A DNA stretch of 64,000 nucleotides, taken from a phage. Made by a program: the position numbers and the translations under genes. This document shows positions 56,345 through 60,153 of this stretch, piece after piece. The stretch lies in the sequence record PZ452594.1; one strand, written 5' to 3'. Within the stretch, counting starts at the first letter, position 1; each line of letters opens with the position of its first letter. The notes beneath the pieces were generated by a model. That model was given only the letters and a program-made list of their open reading frames with translations, had not been told where the DNA came from and did not search any database.

Positions 56345-56872
56345 TTATGCGAGTACCGTCTTTAACCGTTCTTCAAACTTCCGAAGAGTATTCTGGCGTT
56401 CAGCTCTTTGCTTTTTGTAAGTTTCAATACGCTCTGAAATGAGAGTGTATCGTTCATTTACTGATTCTTTCATAAAATCAGGAATTTCACGAGAAGCTTT
56501 AATCTCGTCAAATTTATCAATAACAGCTTGCTCTTCAGCAATTAAGTTATCATACATCAAAATATCTTTCTTGATGAACTCAATATCTTCTTGAGTTACA
56601 CGAGATAATTTAGATGCTTTATCCTTTTTGTACTGTTCGTTAGTATCACGAGACCAGTGTAATGTACGATTTTTATTCGTATTCTTATAAATTTCTACAA
56701 TACCAATCTCATCAATAATAACGATCCAATTCCAACGGGATTTGTAAATTTGTCCTCCATCAACAGTGATTTCACCTCCGATTGAGATGTCATTAAAGAA
56801 CTTGCTTTGTGCTTCAGATTTAAATTTACCATCATTGTAGTTTACCAAGTTGAAAATATCTTTAGCATTCAT
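56345..56872 (-). CDS. hypothetical protein (~175 aa), coiled-coil C-terminus
   Basis: Track ORF 56345-56932; start moved to ATG (MNAKDIFNLV...) downstream of promoter cassette, SD GGAGGAACA. Confidence 0.5.
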   Translation of the reverse strand: MNAKDIFNLVNYNDGKFKSEAQSKFFNDISIGGEITVDGGQIYKSRWNWIVIIDEIGIVEIYKNTNKNRTLHWSRDTNEQYKKDKASKLSRVTQEDIEFIKKDILMYDNLIAEEQAVIDKFDEIKASREIPDFMKESVNERYTLISERIETYKKQRAERQNTLRKFEERLKTVLA

Positions 56873-56899
56873 TTTTGTTCCTCCGTAGTTGATAGTTGT

Positions 56900-56929
56900 A
56901 TAGTACCACAGAGGAACAGTCTTGTAAAC
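56900..56929 (-). promoter_or_regulatory. T4-type early promoter (cassette copy)
   Basis: GTTTAC (rc 56924-56929), 18-nt spacer, TACTAT (rc 56900-56905); 52-bp block identical to 30961-31012. Confidence 0.5.
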
Positions 56930-56931
56930 CA

Positions 56932-57246
56932 CTAAAAGAAACTTCTTTCACAATTTTTTCCACTGAACCAAGCGCTCACTGCTTTCTTAGTCTCAGGAGC
57001 AGTGTTATCCATAAACCATTCAAAGGCAGCCTTTTTATGATTCTGGAGGGCTTCTCGGGCTTTAATCTGCTCACGGTCTATTAACACTAACATATGAGCC
57101 TTTCTTGTCACCAAGGGCTTCTTATGATTCTTGGAGTATTCCCAGTCATTTGTCCAACGCATTGTCGTTGCGAACTGATGAACCGCGTCTTTAATTTTAG
57201 TTTCGTAAATTTCACGAGCCTTTGAGTATAACATCACTACCTCCAT
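56932..57246 (-). CDS. hypothetical protein (104 aa)
   Basis: ORF track. Confidence 0.4.
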   Translation of the reverse strand: MEVVMLYSKAREIYETKIKDAVHQFATTMRWTNDWEYSKNHKKPLVTRKAHMLVLIDREQIKAREALQNHKKAAFEWFMDNTAPETKKAVSAWFSGKNCERSFF

Positions 57247-57335: not shown

Positions 57336-58304
57336 TTATTTCAGAAGAGTAACCTCAGCGATTTCTTCCCAACCGTTTTTGTCGGTCATAATAAAGTCAG
57401 CAAGATAAAGAGCAGTACGCAGTGAAACATTACGTAAACGATTAACATTGACTTTCATCCATGATAATGCTTTATAAGTTTCTTCATCAGAAAGACCGCG
57501 CTTTTGCATCATGTCAGTTGAAAGAATAACATCTTCAACCCTGACCATAATTTCTTCATTAGTGTGAACACCCAAATCCAAATAAACTGAGCGGGACACT
57601 AATGCTTGTAAATGTGGAGCAAGTTTAGTACCACGGTCTAATTCGCGGTCAATGTCAACGTTTGTGATAAAAACAATCGTTCCTTTAAATTCAAACTCAC
57701 GCTCAATGCCTTTTTCTTCTAAGTAAGAAGATGCGGTGCTCCAGCAGACTTTACGGGTCTCTCCAGTGTCCAGAGCAGCTTTCAGAAGATTAAGAATGTC
57801 CATATCAGAGAAAACATCCACATCATCAATCAAAAGGACAGAATTCTCTTCACGATTATTCCAAAGCTGCTCATAAAGACCAATACCAGAGATTTTACCA
57901 TTAATGCTTTTATATTCAATGTATCCAATATCATTTGCTTTATTTAAAGCTTTATCTAAAGAATACGTTTTACCAATACCTGCTGCACCAGAGATAATTA
58001 ATGAACGAATGTTTCCGTTAATAATACCATTCGTCATCATTCCCATAACATTAAATCTTTTATTAATGCGGGTTTTCATATCTTCATACGATTCTTTAAC
58101 TTCTTCAACTTTTACACCATCATATGAAATGTCTGATTTGTAAACCCAAACACCGCGACGTTTACCGTCAATTTCAACAAAAACTTTACCATCTCCTTGT
58201 GCATCTACCGGAGCATTATCTGGGAACCATTCGCCTAAGAGCTCAAAAGTTCCAGAAATTTCTTTACCGAAGTAGATACCCTTATTGATAGTTACAGTTT
58301 TCAT
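57336..58304 (-). CDS. P-loop NTPase (322 aa)
   Basis: Walker A GAAGIGKTYS and Walker B VLLIDDVD. Confidence 0.6.
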   Translation of the reverse strand: MKTVTINKGIYFGKEISGTFELLGEWFPDNAPVDAQGDGKVFVEIDGKRRGVWVYKSDISYDGVKVEEVKESYEDMKTRINKRFNVMGMMTNGIINGNIRSLIISGAAGIGKTYSLDKALNKANDIGYIEYKSINGKISGIGLYEQLWNNREENSVLLIDDVDVFSDMDILNLLKAALDTGETRKVCWSTASSYLEEKGIEREFEFKGTIVFITNVDIDRELDRGTKLAPHLQALVSRSVYLDLGVHTNEEIMVRVEDVILSTDMMQKRGLSDEETYKALSWMKVNVNRLRNVSLRTALYLADFIMTDKNGWEEIAEVTLLK

Positions 58305-58361
58305 TTTATTCTCCTTTGATTTGATAGGACTACTATAACATAGTCCTATCAGTTTGTATAC

Positions 58362-58562
58362 TTATTTTGACATTTCTTCGATGTCACGACGATACCCGTC
58401 ACGAACTTCACGAAGAGCTTCAAGGCCACACATAGGCTCGATACCAGTAATGTGAACTTGATTAATCTGATACTCTACATCTTCTAACTGAGCGAAAACA
58501 TAACGACGTTCAGCTGCACAACCAGATTTAGCTTTACCGAAACGTTTATTCAAAGTAGTCAT
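58362..58562 (-). CDS. hypothetical protein (66 aa)
   Basis: ORF track; downstream of promoter 58601-58630. Confidence 0.45.
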   Translation of the reverse strand: MTTLNKRFGKAKSGCAAERRYVFAQLEDVEYQINQVHITGIEPMCGLEALREVRDGYRRDIEEMSK

Positions 58563-58600
58563 TTTGTATCTCCAATTTACTCATTTGTTTTGATAGTTGT

Positions 58601-58630
58601 ATAGTACCATAAAGCTTTATGCTTGTAAAC
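58601..58630 (-). promoter_or_regulatory. T4-type early promoter
   Basis: GTTTAC (rc 58625-58630), 18-nt spacer, TACTAT (rc 58601-58606). Confidence 0.45.
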
Positions 58631-58649: not shown

Positions 58650-58679
58650 TGAAATAAAAAAGGGAGCCCGAAGGCTCCC
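58650..58679 (-). terminator. intrinsic terminator
   Basis: Hairpin gggagcc-cgaa-ggctccc (58662-58679; UUCG loop in RNA) followed by U-run (plus A-run 58654-58661). Confidence 0.6.
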
Positions 58680-58681
58680 TA

Positions 58682-59695
58682 TCATTTATAATAACTTCGG
58701 TGGTTTTCAAGATAGACCTTCTCAAGGAAGTCATCCCAGAAACTCATGTCTACTTTTTGCTGCATACCGTTCTTAGAAGCTTCAGTAGATGCTGCTTCTA
58801 CTTGATCAACCACATCTTCCAAAAACTCTTGAACTGTTTTAAATGGATGTTTACCCAACTTCACGTCGAGAATAAATGGAGCATCTTGGAGTGGATAAAT
58901 CAAGTCGCCAGTTTTGTAAATTTCCAATAGTTGAAGTCCACCACGACAAGCATGACTTAGTGCTTTCCAATCAATACCTTCATTAGCTTCGGCTTTACGA
59001 GCACGTTCACCATATTCAGCATCTAATTTGTTCAGTGACTGCTTAAGCTCAATAAGAGAAAGTGTTGTCTGATATTTACGACCCAACACAGTGTAGAACG
59101 TTTGCGGGCCTGTTTTCTCGTGATTATGGAACACCCATTCACAGAATTCGTTTTCTGGAAGACGATGCTTAATATCTTCAACTTTAGTGCGACGCTGCTT
59201 AATAGAACCATCTTCTTGGTAATCAATCCACTGCTCAGGAATTTGATTAACTACTTTCAATACATCACGTAATGCAGCCAAACGAGAACCCTTGACACCG
59301 TATTTAGAAGCTTGCTTGCGAACATATCCTAAATAGGATTTCATGTTAGTCGTATAAAAACGAGAACGGTTGTCTTGAATAAACTTCCACACGTCAGGCA
59401 AATCAGATTTAACCACTAGTTCAGGTGGAGTGTGAAGCATATCCAATGCTACAGTTTCACCATCTGCTGCTAATTTAAAGAAATATTTAAGACTGTATAG
59501 TTCATGGTCAATATCATCTTTAGTGTTTTTAGATGATGTGTTGTTGGTATTTTTACTCATATGCTCTTTAACATTTCCGATAAGAATATCGCGAGCAGGA
59601 GGAACAAAGATTTCTTTAAAATCTACATCAGATTCTGGGGTAGAAGTTCCATAAAGATGACTACCAAAATAGCTTTTCATTACTGTTTTCATCAT
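58682..59695 (-). CDS. Pol-beta-superfamily nucleotidyltransferase-like protein (337 aa)
   Basis: N-terminal GSHLYGTSTPESDVDF fits the hG[GS]x9-13 D-x-[DE] nucleotidyltransferase signature; followed by terminator. Confidence 0.5.
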   Translation of the reverse strand: MMKTVMKSYFGSHLYGTSTPESDVDFKEIFVPPARDILIGNVKEHMSKNTNNTSSKNTKDDIDHELYSLKYFFKLAADGETVALDMLHTPPELVVKSDLPDVWKFIQDNRSRFYTTNMKSYLGYVRKQASKYGVKGSRLAALRDVLKVVNQIPEQWIDYQEDGSIKQRRTKVEDIKHRLPENEFCEWVFHNHEKTGPQTFYTVLGRKYQTTLSLIELKQSLNKLDAEYGERARKAEANEGIDWKALSHACRGGLQLLEIYKTGDLIYPLQDAPFILDVKLGKHPFKTVQEFLEDVVDQVEAASTEASKNGMQQKVDMSFWDDFLEKVYLENHRSYYK

Positions 59696-60153
59696 TCAGC
59701 CTTATATTCAATAACAGGACATACTTTAGCTTTACGCGCTTTTAAAAATTCAACGATAACCGATTTCTTGGGTTGAATAGGAGGTAAACCTTTATACGCC
59801 CTATCAATATTTTCTACGTGTAAAGCATAATCCTTTTTCCATTTATAATCTTTATATTTTTCACGCAAATGTGCAGGAATAACAAATGAACCGATAATAA
59901 GTAAAACAACCAAAATCGCAAGTATAAATGCTGATGGAAGCAAAGTCCATAAACTACCAAAAATAATCCAACGCTGTAGGCTTTCTGCACAAATAATTGT
60001 TAGCCCTACGAGTATAGCACATCCAAAAATAGAAACGAAAAATGTAGGAATGGCAATAGACCAAAAATATGCGCATAGTGTCTTAGGTCGTTGCCATTCA
60101 TCGTTAAACAATTTGAATAATTTATAGTGCCAAGAGTTTTCATTAATAATCAT
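59692..60153 (-). CDS. membrane protein (153 aa)
   Basis: Two or three hydrophobic helices (FWSIAIPTFFVSIFGCAILVGLTIICA; LLPSAFILAILVVLLIIGSFVI). Confidence 0.5.
   Translation of the reverse strand: MIINENSWHYKLFKLFNDEWQRPKTLCAYFWSIAIPTFFVSIFGCAILVGLTIICAESLQRWIIFGSLWTLLPSAFILAILVVLLIIGSFVIPAHLREKYKDYKWKKDYALHVENIDRAYKGLPPIQPKKSVIVEFLKARKAKVCPVIEYKAE

What the first reader, a model, noticed from the sequence alone, without database searches (positions are those of the whole stretch)
57336..58304. P-loop ATPase of unknown role next to the nucleotidyltransferase-like gene
The 322-aa protein has Walker A GAAGIGKTYS and Walker B VLLIDDVD but no similarity I can assign to a replication or packaging ATPase. 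It is one gene downstream of the nucleotidyltransferase-like ORF, separated by a 66-codon ORF, a promoter and a terminator. The pair could form a functional unit.
Basis: seen in the sequence. Interest (0 to 1): 0.45.

Follow-up and report, generated by a model that had tools for sequence, protein, structure and literature searches.

The report
T4 nrdC.10: orphan phage AAA+ ATPase
The gene is the already catalogued but never characterised phage T4 gene nrdC.10, which encodes an intact AAA+ ATPase of a large, phage-only family distantly related to DNA clamp loaders; there is little evidence that it works with the neighbouring nucleotidyltransferase.

Summary
The ORF is real: 57336..58304 on the minus strand, 322 aa, with both Walker motifs as quoted. 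It is the ortholog of phage T4 nrdC.10 (99% identical). The upstream neighbour is T4 nrdC.11, an RlaP-family nucleotidyltransferase (98% identical).

A confident AlphaFold model shows a small N-terminal beta domain, a long helix, an AAA+ core and a helical lid. Walker A, Walker B (DD), sensor 1 (N215), arginine finger (R238) and sensor 2 (R296) are invariant across the family. It is not KAP or PhoH-like. No curated family claims it. The closest profile match is the T4-type clamp loader gp44 (hhalign 95.7%), with RarA next. But it lacks the collar domain and carries a 24-residue insertion before sensor 1.

The family is large and was found only in phages and metagenome bins.

Linkage to nrdC.11 holds only in enterobacterial and Acinetobacter T4-likes. 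The two genes are separated by a terminator and an early promoter, and many phages have only one of them. In a broad environmental clade the homolog lies between uvsY/uvsX and a UvsW-like helicase.

T4 knock-down shows no fitness effect. My best guess, with weak support, is an accessory ATP-driven switch in DNA replication or recombination.

The parts
57336..58304 (-). nrdC.10 ortholog: 322-aa AAA+ ATPase CDS (stop codon included)
   Evidence: ORF and translation. 99% identical to T4 NrdC.10 over 316 aa. PHROG 1250 at E 1.3e-166.
58110..58304 (-). N-terminal five-stranded beta domain (aa 1-65). It is variable or absent in distant homologs.
   Evidence: AF2 model secondary structure, E3-11, E14-26, E39-45, E48-54, E59-61. 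Absent in the phage 121Q homolog and unaligned in many IMG/VR homologs.
58020..58088 (-). Long linker helix (aa 73-95) leading into the ATPase core
   Evidence: AF2 model H73-95, pLDDT above 90. F84 is invariant.
57570..58019 (-). AAA+ alpha/beta nucleotide-binding domain (aa 96-245)
57966..57989 (-). Walker A, GAAGIGKT (aa 106-113)
   Evidence: Sequence. G106, G109 and K112 are invariant in 48 diverse homologs.
57816..57839 (-). Walker B, VLLIDDVD (aa 156-163). It has a DD pair, not DE.
   Evidence: Sequence. D160 and D161 are invariant.
57759..57794 (-). Helix alpha3 motif LNLLKAALDTGE (aa 171-182), a family signature. It aligns with the gp44 stretch [12 protein letters not shown].
   Evidence: L174 and K175 are invariant; N172, A177 and D179 nearly so. 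Aligned columns in hhalign.
57687..57758 (-). Family-specific 24-residue beta-alpha-beta insertion (aa 183-206) between alpha3 and the sensor-1 strand. It holds invariant R184, W188 and F204.
   Evidence: AF2 secondary structure E185-187, H193-198, E203-205. It appears as a gap in gp44 and RarA in hhalign. Invariant residues.
57660..57677 (-). Sensor-1 strand IVFITN (aa 210-215), with N215 as sensor 1
   Evidence: N215 is invariant. It aligns with IIITAN of gp44.
57588..57602 (-). Box VII / arginine finger LVSRS (aa 235-239, R238). It aligns with the SRC motif of gp44.
   Evidence: R238 is invariant and S237 nearly so. hhalign columns.
57339..57569 (-). Helical lid domain (aa 246-322), with sensor-2 arginine R296 in SLRTAL (57408..57425). 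No further C-terminal domain follows.
   Evidence: AF2 helices 249-262, 265-268, 273-285, 295-307 and 312-320. R296 is invariant.
58321..58352 (-). 12-bp hairpin between the 66-codon ORF and nrdC.10. There is no U-tract on the coding strand.
   Evidence: RNA fold -17.7 kcal/mol, z -4.4. The scan flags it as terminator-like only on the + strand. It is annotated as a terminator in phage SA21RB.
58362..58562 (-). 66-codon ORF (PHROG 6200, unknown function). It is inserted between the early promoter and nrdC.10 and is absent from T4 itself.
   Evidence: The T4 intergenic sequence lacks it.
58601..58629 (-). T4 early-type promoter (TTTACA-17-TACTAT, with TG) that drives the 66-codon ORF and nrdC.10
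   Evidence: Promoter scan. The same sequence lies directly upstream of nrdC.10 in T4. It is annotated as an early promoter in SA21RB.
58661..58680 (-). Intrinsic terminator directly after nrdC.11 (AGGGAGCCTTCGGGCTCCCT followed by TTTTTATTT)
   Evidence: Terminator scan. Conserved in T4.
58682..59695 (-). Neighbour: nrdC.11 ortholog, an RlaP-family (PF10127) Pol-beta nucleotidyltransferase. It is listed as context, not as a shown partner.
   Evidence: 98% identical to T4 NrdC.11. Pfam RlaP E 1.7e-11, above cutoff. PHROG 388.

Best explanation
Shown: the gene is the ortholog of phage T4 nrdC.10. It encodes a catalytically intact AAA+ ATPase of a large family found only in phages and metagenome bins (PHROG 1250). 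It is transcribed early, from its own promoter.

Shown for the anatomy: a variable N-terminal beta domain, a linker helix, an AAA+ core whose sequence profile is closest to clamp-loader-clade proteins (T4 gp44, RarA), a family-specific 24-residue insertion just before sensor 1, and a lid. There is no collar domain.

Inferred for the mechanism: the protein assembles into an oligomer in which R238 of one subunit completes the ATP site of the next. It then uses ATP binding and slow hydrolysis (Walker B is DD) as a switch on DNA or on a DNA-bound phage protein complex. The conserved basic and aromatic residues K137, K175, R184 and W188 in the loops around the insertion would make the contact. The variable N-terminal domain would provide targeting.

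The most likely arena is accessory support of replication or recombination, a RarA-like or clamp-loader-like job at forks, junctions or clamps. The protein is dispensable in laboratory hosts.

Confidence differs by layer. Identity and AAA+ nature: about 0.97. A DNA replication or recombination role: about 0.35-0.4.
For: Identity:
- 99% identical to T4 NrdC.10.
- PHROG 1250 at E 1e-166.

Intact ATPase:
- Walker A, Walker B, N215, R238 and R296 are invariant in 48 homologs down to 31% identity.
- The AF2 model has mean pLDDT 94 and shows an AAA+ core plus lid.

Clamp-loader-clade affinity:
- The only non-self PHROG hits are clamp-loader families (E about 1e-4).
- Profile-profile match to T4-type gp44: 95.7%, E 9.8e-9, 161 columns spanning Walker A to sensor 2.
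- Against single E. coli sequences, RarA is best at 93%, ahead of Lon 88%, RuvB 62%, and ClpA, RavA, ClpX and DnaA all below 25%.

DNA-metabolism context:
- In 39 of 60 IMG/VR loci with enough downstream sequence, a UvsW-like helicase starts within 3 kb downstream on the same strand. UvsY, UvsX and gp32 homologs lie upstream.
- In Vibrio phage K444 the gene lies between the clamp, clamp loader and regA genes and helicase, RNase H, gp46 and gp47 genes.
- In KVP40-like Vibrio phages it lies between nrdAB and a topoisomerase subunit gene.
- denV, uvsY and a helicase gene are nearby in Aeromonas TSW001, and denV in phage 121Q.

Conservation pattern:
- The core is strongly conserved across phages of very different hosts (Escherichia, Agrobacterium, Rhodobacter, Pseudomonas), while the N-terminus varies.
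- This fits a universal target such as nucleic acid.

Transcription: early and independent.
Against: - No experiment bears on function.
- The UvsW/UvsY/UvsX synteny comes from one broad environmental clade (pairwise identity 44-95%). It may reflect inherited gene order rather than function.
- In T4, PA5oct, RcRudolph and Aeromonas AhMtk13a the gene sits among small early genes of unknown function.
- E. coli DnaX scored only 5% in hhalign.
- The hhalign controls were single sequences while gp44 was a 3-sequence profile, so the ranking is soft.
- No recognisable DNA-binding domain is present.
- T4 knock-down of nrdC.10 was scored 'Not Fit', that is, no fitness effect (PMC11879866 supplement).
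Confidence: 0.4

Rival explanations
1. NrdC.10 and the RlaP-type nucleotidyltransferase NrdC.11 form one functional unit. For example, the ATPase would remodel or deliver damaged tRNA/RNA whose 3' end NrdC.11 then extends, as part of phage RNA repair.
For: - The genes are adjacent, with 0-2 small ORFs between them, in T4, RB69, Klebsiella KPV15, three IMG/VR Tevenvirinae loci and the fairly distant Acinetobacter phage Acj61.
- Bacterial RlaP enzymes add 1-2 nucleotides to 3' ends of damaged RNA, and T4 NrdC.11 belongs to that family (bioRxiv 10.64898/2025.12.29.696909).
- A Thg1-like tRNA-His guanylyltransferase lies 2 kb from the homolog in Agrobacterium phage Atu_ph07.
Against: - A terminator and an early promoter separate the two genes.
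- Linkage is lost outside Tevenvirinae and Acinetobacter phages. The genes are 59 kb apart in Aeromonas avDM14-QBC.
- No NrdC.11 homolog lies within 20 kb in AhMtk13a, Vibrio 6E35.1a or K444, nor in the jumbo and small phages examined.
- Only 4 of 64 IMG/VR loci with at least 3 kb upstream hold one: 0 of 5 at 40-60% identity and 1 of 56 below 40%.
- Genus counts are unequal: Klebsiella 149 versus 286, Vibrio 121 versus 59.
- Klebsiella phage Roth41 has nrdC.11 with a methyltransferase gene where nrdC.10 would be.
- The RlaP paper's section on bioinformatics and gene neighbourhoods mentions no associated ATPase.
Confidence: 0.12
2. NrdC.10 is a protein-remodelling AAA+ (MoxR-, Clp- or Rubisco-activase-like). 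It would act on a host or phage protein complex early in infection, as part of host takeover, assembly chaperoning or counter-defence. The variable N-terminal domain would choose the target.
For: - The gene has an early promoter and sits in a dispensable, fast-evolving region full of small early genes in T4, PA5oct and RcRudolph.
- The N-terminal domain is variable.
- Knock-down is neutral in a laboratory host, as is typical for accessory or anti-defence genes.
Against: - Pore loop 1 carries a conserved Gly-Lys, not the aromatic-hydrophobic pair of unfoldases (the comparison rests on general knowledge of AAA+ proteins).
- The model shows no helix-2 insert, and no VWA partner gene was seen among the conserved neighbours.
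- There are no PADLOC hits.
- The core is conserved across phages of unrelated hosts, which argues against a host-specific protein target.
- Sequence profiles favour gp44 and RarA.
Confidence: 0.25
3. NrdC.10 is an initiator or loader-type AAA+ switch (DnaA/Hda/DnaC/ORC-Cdc6-like). It would mark origins or load a helicase.
For: - Walker B is DD, as in DnaA and Hda (sequence; the comparison is from general knowledge).
- Weak hits to Hda (NCBIfam E 0.017), to Cdc6 and ORC in the PDB sequence search (E 0.14-0.95), and to AAA_16 and AAA_22 in 45 and 30 of 48 members.
- In the small phage RcRudolph the gene lies about 4 kb from a primase/polymerase gene.
Against: - The model has only a 10-residue helix between strands beta2 and beta3. 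It therefore lacks the extra helical insert that defines the initiator clade (the clade definition is from the literature).
- hhalign to E. coli DnaA gives 2%.
- There is no DNA-binding or winged-helix domain.
- T4 already has gp59 as its helicase loader.
- All the sequence hits are below threshold.
Confidence: 0.06
4. It is a KAP-family or PhoH-like P-loop NTPase. These are the two non-AAA+ alternatives the first reader listed.
For: Only the bare Walker A and B motifs.
Against: - No KAP or PhoH Pfam hit in any of the 48 family members.
- The model has the AAA+ lid with a sensor-2 arginine and an arginine finger.
- Structural neighbours are all AAA+ proteins.
Confidence: 0.01

Closest known systems
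Phage T4 NrdC.10 (T4p094, NP_049708; PHROG 1250), a conserved hypothetical protein
   Same: It is the same gene. The proteins are 99% identical over 316 aa. The position is the same, between nrdC.9 and nrdC.11. The early promoter is the same. An AAA motif was already noted in 2006 (PMC1524935).
   Different: The last six residues differ. In this phage a 66-codon ORF plus a hairpin has been inserted between the promoter and the gene.
Clamp-loader-clade AAA+ proteins: T4 gp44, RFC small subunits, E. coli RarA/MgsA
   Same: This is the best profile match: gp44 95.7%, E 9.8e-9 over 161 columns, and RarA 93%. The aligned elements are:
- Walker A;
- Walker B;
- the alpha3 motif (LNLLKAALD against [10 protein letters not shown]);
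- the sensor-1 strand (FITN against IITAN);
- the Ser-Arg arginine finger (SRS against SRC);
- the lid up to sensor 2.
   Different: - It has no C-terminal collar or oligomerisation domain; the protein ends after the lid.
- It has a 24-residue insertion before sensor 1 that clamp loaders lack.
- It has an extra N-terminal beta domain.
- Walker B is DD, not DE.
- No gp62-like partner gene was identified.
AAA+ proteins with a hairpin before sensor 1: RuvB, ClpA/ClpX/Lon, MoxR (NorQ, CbbQ), NtrC-type activators, MCM
   Different: - The insertion is beta-alpha-beta, not a simple hairpin.
- It has no helix-2 insert, no GAFTGA loop, no RuvB-type winged helix and no VWA partner.
- hhalign gives RuvB 62%, RavA 17% and ClpX 8%.
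Bacterial RNA-repair operons containing RlaP (RtcB-RlaP-RtcA, regulated by the AAA+ activator RtcR)
   Same: A Pol-beta RlaP-family gene lies next to an AAA+ gene.
   Different: RtcR is a sigma-54 activator with sensor and DNA-binding domains, whereas NrdC.10 has neither those domains nor the activator loop. The phage linkage is limited to certain lineages and is interrupted by transcription signals.

Membership tests
T4 NrdC.10 family (PHROG 1250) | Full-length sequence match to the family profile and to T4 NrdC.10 | tested here: met
   PHROG 1250 at E 1.3e-166 covers residues 1-322. 99% identity to T4 NrdC.10.
T4 NrdC.10 family (PHROG 1250) | Syntenic position between nrdC.9 and nrdC.11 in Tequatrovirus genomes | tested here: met
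   The gene order matches T4 and SA21RB.
AAA+ superfamily | Walker A GxxGxGK[ST] and Walker B hhhhD[DE] | tested here: met
   GAAGIGKT at aa 106-113 and VLLIDDVD at aa 156-163. G106, G109, K112, D160 and D161 are invariant.
AAA+ superfamily | Sensor 1 polar residue at the end of strand beta4 | tested here: met
   N215 in IVFITN is invariant in 48 homologs and lies at the end of predicted strand 209-214.
AAA+ superfamily | Arginine finger (box VII) after helix alpha4 | tested here: met
   R238 in LVSRS is invariant and aligns with the SRC arginine of gp44. Action in trans between subunits was not tested.
AAA+ superfamily | C-terminal helical lid carrying a sensor-2 arginine | tested here: met
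   Helices span residues 249-320. R296 is invariant and lies at the start of helix 295-307.
AAA+ superfamily | Alpha-beta-alpha core fold superimposable on solved AAA+ structures | tested here: met
   [not shown]
AAA+ superfamily | Ring or spiral oligomer with ATP sites at the interfaces | not testable with these tools
   Only a monomer could be modelled.
Clamp-loader clade (RFC, gp44, DnaX, RarA) | Profile similarity across the whole AAA+ module | tested here: met
   hhalign against the gp44 alignment gives 95.7%, E 9.8e-9, 161 columns. RarA gives 93%. DnaX gives only 5%, and the controls were single sequences.
Clamp-loader clade (RFC, gp44, DnaX, RarA) | SRC motif | tested here: inconclusive
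   The motif reads SRS. Ser and Arg are conserved but the Cys is replaced.
Clamp-loader clade (RFC, gp44, DnaX, RarA) | Minimal core without insertions between alpha3 and beta4 | tested here: not met
   A 24-residue beta-alpha-beta insertion (aa 183-206) appears as a gap in gp44 and RarA.
Clamp-loader clade (RFC, gp44, DnaX, RarA) | Third, C-terminal collar or oligomerisation domain | tested here: not met
   The protein ends at residue 322, right after a lid of about 75 residues.
Clamp-loader clade (RFC, gp44, DnaX, RarA) | Binds and opens a sliding clamp, or binds primer-template DNA | not testable with these tools
   This needs biochemistry.
Pre-sensor-1 hairpin AAA+ clades (HCLR, helix-2 insert, pre-sensor-2 insert) | Beta-hairpin inserted between alpha3 and beta4 | tested here: inconclusive
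   An insertion sits at that position with two short strands flanking a helix. Homology to the canonical hairpin was not established. The top structural hits come from these clades but by narrow margins.
MoxR-type AAA+ | Helix-2 insert and a VWA-domain partner gene | tested here: not met
   The link from beta2 to alpha2 is 4 residues in the model. No VWA protein is among the conserved neighbour clusters that were scanned. RavA gives 17% in hhalign.
Initiator clade (DnaA, DnaC, ORC/Cdc6) | Extra helical insert between alpha2 and beta3 | tested here: not met
   Only helix 140-149 lies between strands 130-135 and 155-160. DnaA gives 2% in hhalign.
KAP P-loop and PhoH-like NTPases | Match to the family profile | tested here: not met
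   Neither family appears among the Pfam hits of any of the 48 members at E 0.01 or better.
RlaP-linked RNA-repair module | Conserved linkage and co-occurrence with an RlaP gene across lineages | tested here: not met
   Linkage holds only in Tevenvirinae and Acj61. It is seen in 4 of 64 IMG/VR loci. The genes are 59 kb apart or absent in Aeromonas and Vibrio phages, and genus counts are unequal.
Known anti-phage defence proteins (PADLOC) | Match to any defence-system model | tested here: not met
   No hit at E 0.1 or better.

The most novel reading that the evidence does not exclude
The NrdC.10 family could be an unrecognised accessory component of T4-type recombination-dependent replication. 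It would be a collar-less, clamp-loader-derived AAA+ switch with its own nucleic-acid-contacting insertion. It would work alongside UvsW, UvsX and UvsY, for example as a phage RarA analogue at stalled forks or as a clamp or mediator remodeller. It is conserved from T4 to jumbo phages and some siphoviruses.
Probability: 0.2. Interest if true: 0.6.

Novelty: already known. Interest (0 to 1): 0.3.

Why it matters
T4 is the reference system for replisome and recombination biochemistry, yet about half of its genes have no function. nrdC.10 stands out among them for three reasons:
- It is large and enzymatically intact.
- It is conserved in more than 1300 sequenced phages and in thousands of metagenomic clusters.
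- It is restricted to phages.

If it proves to be a second, clamp-loader-related ATPase acting in recombination-dependent replication, that would add a component to a machine considered essentially complete. If it proves to be a remodeller or a counter-defence factor, it would define a new widespread phage effector class.

For this scan, however, the finding rediscovers a catalogued gene. The proposed pairing with the nucleotidyltransferase is weak.

Tried and rejected
- **Curated libraries.** Pfam gives only sub-threshold generic AAA-clan hits (AAA_14 at 23.5 bits against a cutoff of 27). NCBIfam gives only Hda at E 0.017. PADLOC gives nothing.
- **Sequence search of PDB chains with a family profile.** Nothing better than E 0.03, and only P-loop-local hits (mS29, RFC4, Cdc6).
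- **KAP and PhoH-like.** Rejected.
- **Initiator clade and MoxR.** Rejected on topology.
- **Conserved partner gene.**
  - nrdC.9 and nrdC.8 are detectable only in the closest relatives.
  - The most frequent +1 neighbour in environmental loci, a protein of about 340 aa in 25 loci, has no Pfam or PHROG hit.
- **Literature.**
  - 'nrdC.10' occurs in the main text of one held paper, which notes only the AAA motif.
  - CRISPRi-ART supplements list the T4 gene as unknown function and 'Not Fit'.
  - The T4 genome-reduction paper names nrdC.11-mobD.3, but not nrdC.10, among spontaneously lost blocks, and no supplement is held.
  - Searches for 'phrog_1250' and 'Y05J_BPT4' gave nothing useful.
- **Cellular homologs.** All 42 hits in the genome collection are in metagenome bins and none is in an isolate genome.
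- **hhalign against single E. coli reference sequences.** This gave a noisy ranking (DnaX 5% but RarA 93%). I treat the clamp-loader affinity as the best lead, not as proof.
Full report
**1. Observation**

The ORF exists at 57336..58304, but on the minus strand, which the finding did not state. It starts at an ATG preceded by AAAGGAG and encodes 322 residues. Walker A GAAGIGKT (aa 106-113) and Walker B VLLIDDVD (aa 156-163) read as quoted.

Read in the gene's own orientation, the region upstream of it holds, in order:
- the nucleotidyltransferase-like ORF (58682..59695);
- a strong intrinsic terminator (58661..58680, with a T run);
- a T4 early-type promoter (58601..58629);
- a 66-codon ORF (58362..58562);
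- a stable hairpin (58321..58352; -17.7 kcal/mol, z -4.4), which lacks a U-tract on this strand.

The description is therefore accurate. The gene is certainly real. tblastn finds it in 1312 phage records.

**2. Identity**

The window is a Tequatrovirus. A 3.5-kb stretch around the gene is 98% identical to many T4-like phages.
- The ATPase is 99% identical over 316 residues to T4 NrdC.10 (T4p094), and the neighbour is 98% identical to T4 NrdC.11.
- PHROG 1250 ('unknown function') matches end to end at E 1.3e-166.
- NrdC.11 passes the Pfam threshold for RlaP (PF10127).
- T4 itself has no 66-codon ORF. There, the nrdC.11 terminator and the same early promoter lie directly in front of nrdC.10. In this phage the small ORF and the hairpin have been inserted between promoter and gene.
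- Either way, nrdC.10 is transcribed from its own early promoter, downstream of the nrdC.11 terminator.

**3. Anatomy**

I modelled the protein with an alignment of 48 homologs down to 31% identity. The result is confident: mean pLDDT 94, pTM 0.76.

The model has these parts:
- a five-stranded beta domain (aa 1-65);
- a long helix (aa 73-95);
- a canonical AAA+ alpha/beta core (aa 96-245);
- a helical lid (aa 246-322), with nothing after it.

Invariant residues cover every catalytic element: G106, G109 and K112 (Walker A), D160 and D161 (Walker B), N215 (sensor 1), R238 (arginine finger, in LVSRS) and R296 (sensor 2, in SLRTAL). I therefore expect an active, oligomerising ATPase. The oligomer itself is inferred.

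Two features are specific to the family:
- the helix-alpha3 motif LNLLKAALDTGE;
- a 24-residue beta-alpha-beta insertion (aa 183-206) just before the sensor-1 strand, carrying invariant R184, W188 and F204.

The N-terminal domain varies. It is missing in phage 121Q and unaligned in many environmental homologs.

**4. Which kind of ATPase**

Curated libraries do not claim it.
- Pfam gives only sub-threshold generic AAA-clan hits, both for this protein and across the 48 members. KAP and PhoH never appear.
- NCBIfam gives Hda at E 0.017, and PADLOC gives nothing.
- A family profile finds no solved structure by sequence (best E 0.03).

Fold searches confirm AAA+ but do not discriminate.
- Foldseek lists ClpA, RuvB, RFC, ORC and PspF, all at TM 0.45 or less.

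Sequence profiles are more informative.
- The only non-self PHROG hits are clamp-loader families (E about 1e-4).
- Profile-profile comparison with T4-type gp44 gives 95.7% probability, E 9.8e-9, over 161 columns. These run from Walker A through Walker B, the alpha3 motif, the sensor-1 strand (FITN against IITAN), the Ser-Arg finger (SRS against SRC) and the lid.
- Against single E. coli sequences, RarA is best at 93%, then Lon 88% and RuvB 62%. ClpA, RavA, ClpX, DnaX and DnaA are all below 25%.

The nearest detectable relatives are thus clamp-loader-clade proteins. However, two defining features of that clade fail here. There is no collar domain, and there is an insertion where clamp loaders have none. 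I do not file the protein as a clamp loader. The hhalign ranking is also soft, because the controls were single sequences and DnaX scored poorly.

**5. Distribution**

The family is large.
- A profile search of 1.84 billion cluster representatives gives 1502 proteins at E 1e-30 or better and 5652 at E 0.001 or better.
- Cultured carriers are T4-like phages of Escherichia, Klebsiella, Vibrio, Acinetobacter, Aeromonas and others.
- Carriers also include the jumbo phages 121Q, PA5oct, fHe-Yen9-04 and Atu_ph07, and the smaller phages RcRudolph and RDJL Phi 1.
- In one genome per species for 185,579 species, all 42 hits lie in metagenome-assembled bins and none in an isolate. These look like mis-binned phage contigs, so the family appears restricted to phages.

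**6. The proposed pair**

Adjacency with nrdC.11, with 0-2 small ORFs between, holds in T4, RB69, KPV15, three IMG/VR Tevenvirinae loci and Acinetobacter phage Acj61.

It fails elsewhere.
- In Aeromonas avDM14-QBC the genes are 59 kb apart.
- No NrdC.11 homolog lies within 20 kb in AhMtk13a, Vibrio 6E35.1a or K444. None lies in the loci fetched from 121Q, Atu_ph07, PA5oct, RcRudolph or TSW001.
- Of 64 IMG/VR loci with at least 3 kb upstream, the count depends on identity to the query. It is 3 of 3 above 60%, 0 of 5 at 40-60% and 1 of 56 below 40%.
- Genus counts also disagree: Klebsiella 149 against 286 records, Vibrio 121 against 59.
- Klebsiella phage Roth41 has nrdC.11 with a methyltransferase gene where nrdC.10 would be.

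Together with the intervening terminator and promoter, this makes an obligate functional unit unlikely. It is not excluded in Tevenvirinae.

**7. Other context**

I clustered the ORFs of the 80 IMG/VR loci to look for recurrent neighbours.
- A repeated order emerges: gp32, UvsX, UvsY, sometimes nrdAB, the NrdC.10 homolog, a UvsW-like helicase, and further on a primase.
- A UvsW-like gene starts within 3 kb downstream, on the same strand, in 39 of 60 loci with enough sequence.
- These loci form one broad clade (homolog identity 44-95%), so shared ancestry may explain much of the pattern.

Independent hints come from cultured phages.
- In Vibrio K444 the gene lies between the clamp, clamp loader and regA genes and the helicase, RNase H, gp47 and gp46 genes.
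- In KVP40-like phages it lies between nrdAB and a topoisomerase subunit gene.
- denV and uvsY are nearby in TSW001, and denV in 121Q.

Elsewhere (T4, PA5oct, RcRudolph, AhMtk13a) the neighbours are small early genes of unknown function.

**8. Literature**

- The AAA motif in nrdC.10 and the nucleotidyltransferase domain in nrdC.11 were noted in 2006 (PMC1524935).
- In the CRISPRi-ART screen of T4, both genes are listed as unknown function and scored 'Not Fit', meaning no fitness effect of knock-down in the laboratory host (PMC11879866 supplements).
- Bacterial RlaP enzymes add one or two nucleotides to the 3' ends of damaged RNA. T4 NrdC.11 is placed in that family, with its own function unknown (bioRxiv 10.64898/2025.12.29.696909).
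- I found no paper that assigns a function to NrdC.10.

**9. Mechanism**

Shown: an intact AAA+ ATPase with clamp-loader-like sequence motifs, a private insertion, a variable N-terminal domain, early independent transcription, a phage-only distribution, and dispensability in the laboratory.

Inferred: it oligomerises with R238 acting in trans. The DD Walker B suggests a slow, switch-like cycle rather than a processive motor. The conserved K137, K175, R184 and W188 around the insertion contact a universal ligand, most plausibly DNA or a DNA-bound complex. The N-terminal domain targets the protein.

I put about 0.35-0.4 on an accessory role in replication or recombination. I put 0.25 on a protein-remodelling or host-takeover role, about 0.12 on cooperation with NrdC.11 in RNA repair, and less on an initiator or loader role.

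**10. Verdict**

The object is an already catalogued gene, T4 nrdC.10, so the novelty of the finding itself is low.

What this analysis adds:
- a confident fold;
- the clamp-loader-clade affinity, with two failed membership features;
- the family's size and its restriction to phages;
- the limited phylogenetic range of the nrdC.11 linkage;
- the recurring UvsW/UvsY/UvsX neighbourhood.

It remains a reasonable target for experiment.

Noticed in passing
window 58321..58629: Compared with T4, a 66-codon ORF (PHROG 6200, no Pfam hit) and a 12-bp hairpin have been inserted between the early promoter and nrdC.10. T4 has the promoter directly in front of the gene. RB69 and Acj61 carry different small ORFs at the same spot, so this intergenic site seems to collect small cassettes.
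   Followed up: partly
phage GenBank records matched: Many deposited T4-like genomes label the NrdC.10 and NrdC.11 homologs 'thioredoxin'. This looks like a carry-over from the locus names nrdC.10 and nrdC.11. Neither protein has any thioredoxin similarity; they are an AAA+ ATPase and an RlaP nucleotidyltransferase.
   Followed up: partly
window 59692..60153 (minus strand): Where T4 has the homing endonuclease gene mobD upstream of nrdC.11, this phage has a 153-aa predicted membrane protein (RB32ORF096c-like). Its stop overlaps the nrdC.11 start. This is a mobD-free allele of the locus.
   Followed up: no
L007-L086 (IMG/VR), e.g. L048 6883..18135, L070, L031: A broad uncultured phage clade shares this order: terminase, gp32, UvsX, UvsY, sometimes nrdAB, NrdC.10 homolog, UvsW-like helicase, PHROG 11279, PHROG 11758, PHROG 11058, PHROG 11778, primase. 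Several conserved members have no Pfam or PHROG annotation. One is a protein of about 340 aa placed directly after the NrdC.10 homolog in 18 loci.
   Followed up: partly
L093-L134 (genome-contig hits): All 42 cellular-genome hits are in metagenome bins, including bins named Nanoarchaeia, Woesearchaeota and Methanobacteriota. L093 is a 167-kb contig and L094 a 73-kb contig. They look like T4-like or jumbo phage contigs mis-binned into MAGs.
   Followed up: no
L003 2933..3721 (Agrobacterium phage Atu_ph07): A Thg1-like tRNA-His guanylyltransferase gene lies about 2 kb upstream of the NrdC.10 homolog. It is the only RNA-repair-type neighbour seen outside the nrdC.11-linked lineages.
   Followed up: no
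L002 13436..14446 (T4 RefSeq NC_000866): Translating the T4 reference nrdC.11 gives an X at residue 102, so the reference sequence has an ambiguous base there.
   Followed up: no
window 56345..56932 (minus strand): The mechanical ORF for nrdC.8 starts at a GTG and overlaps nrdC.9. The PHROG 2274 match begins at residue 21, at the internal ATG. That ATG agrees with the 528-bp gene annotated in T4 and SA21RB and is probably the real start.
   Followed up: no
protein cluster P0001: The 90%-identity cluster representative for this exact protein is 377 aa, 55 residues longer than the window protein. This is probably an upstream start called in some assemblies. In this window an in-frame stop precludes such an extension.
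   Followed up: no
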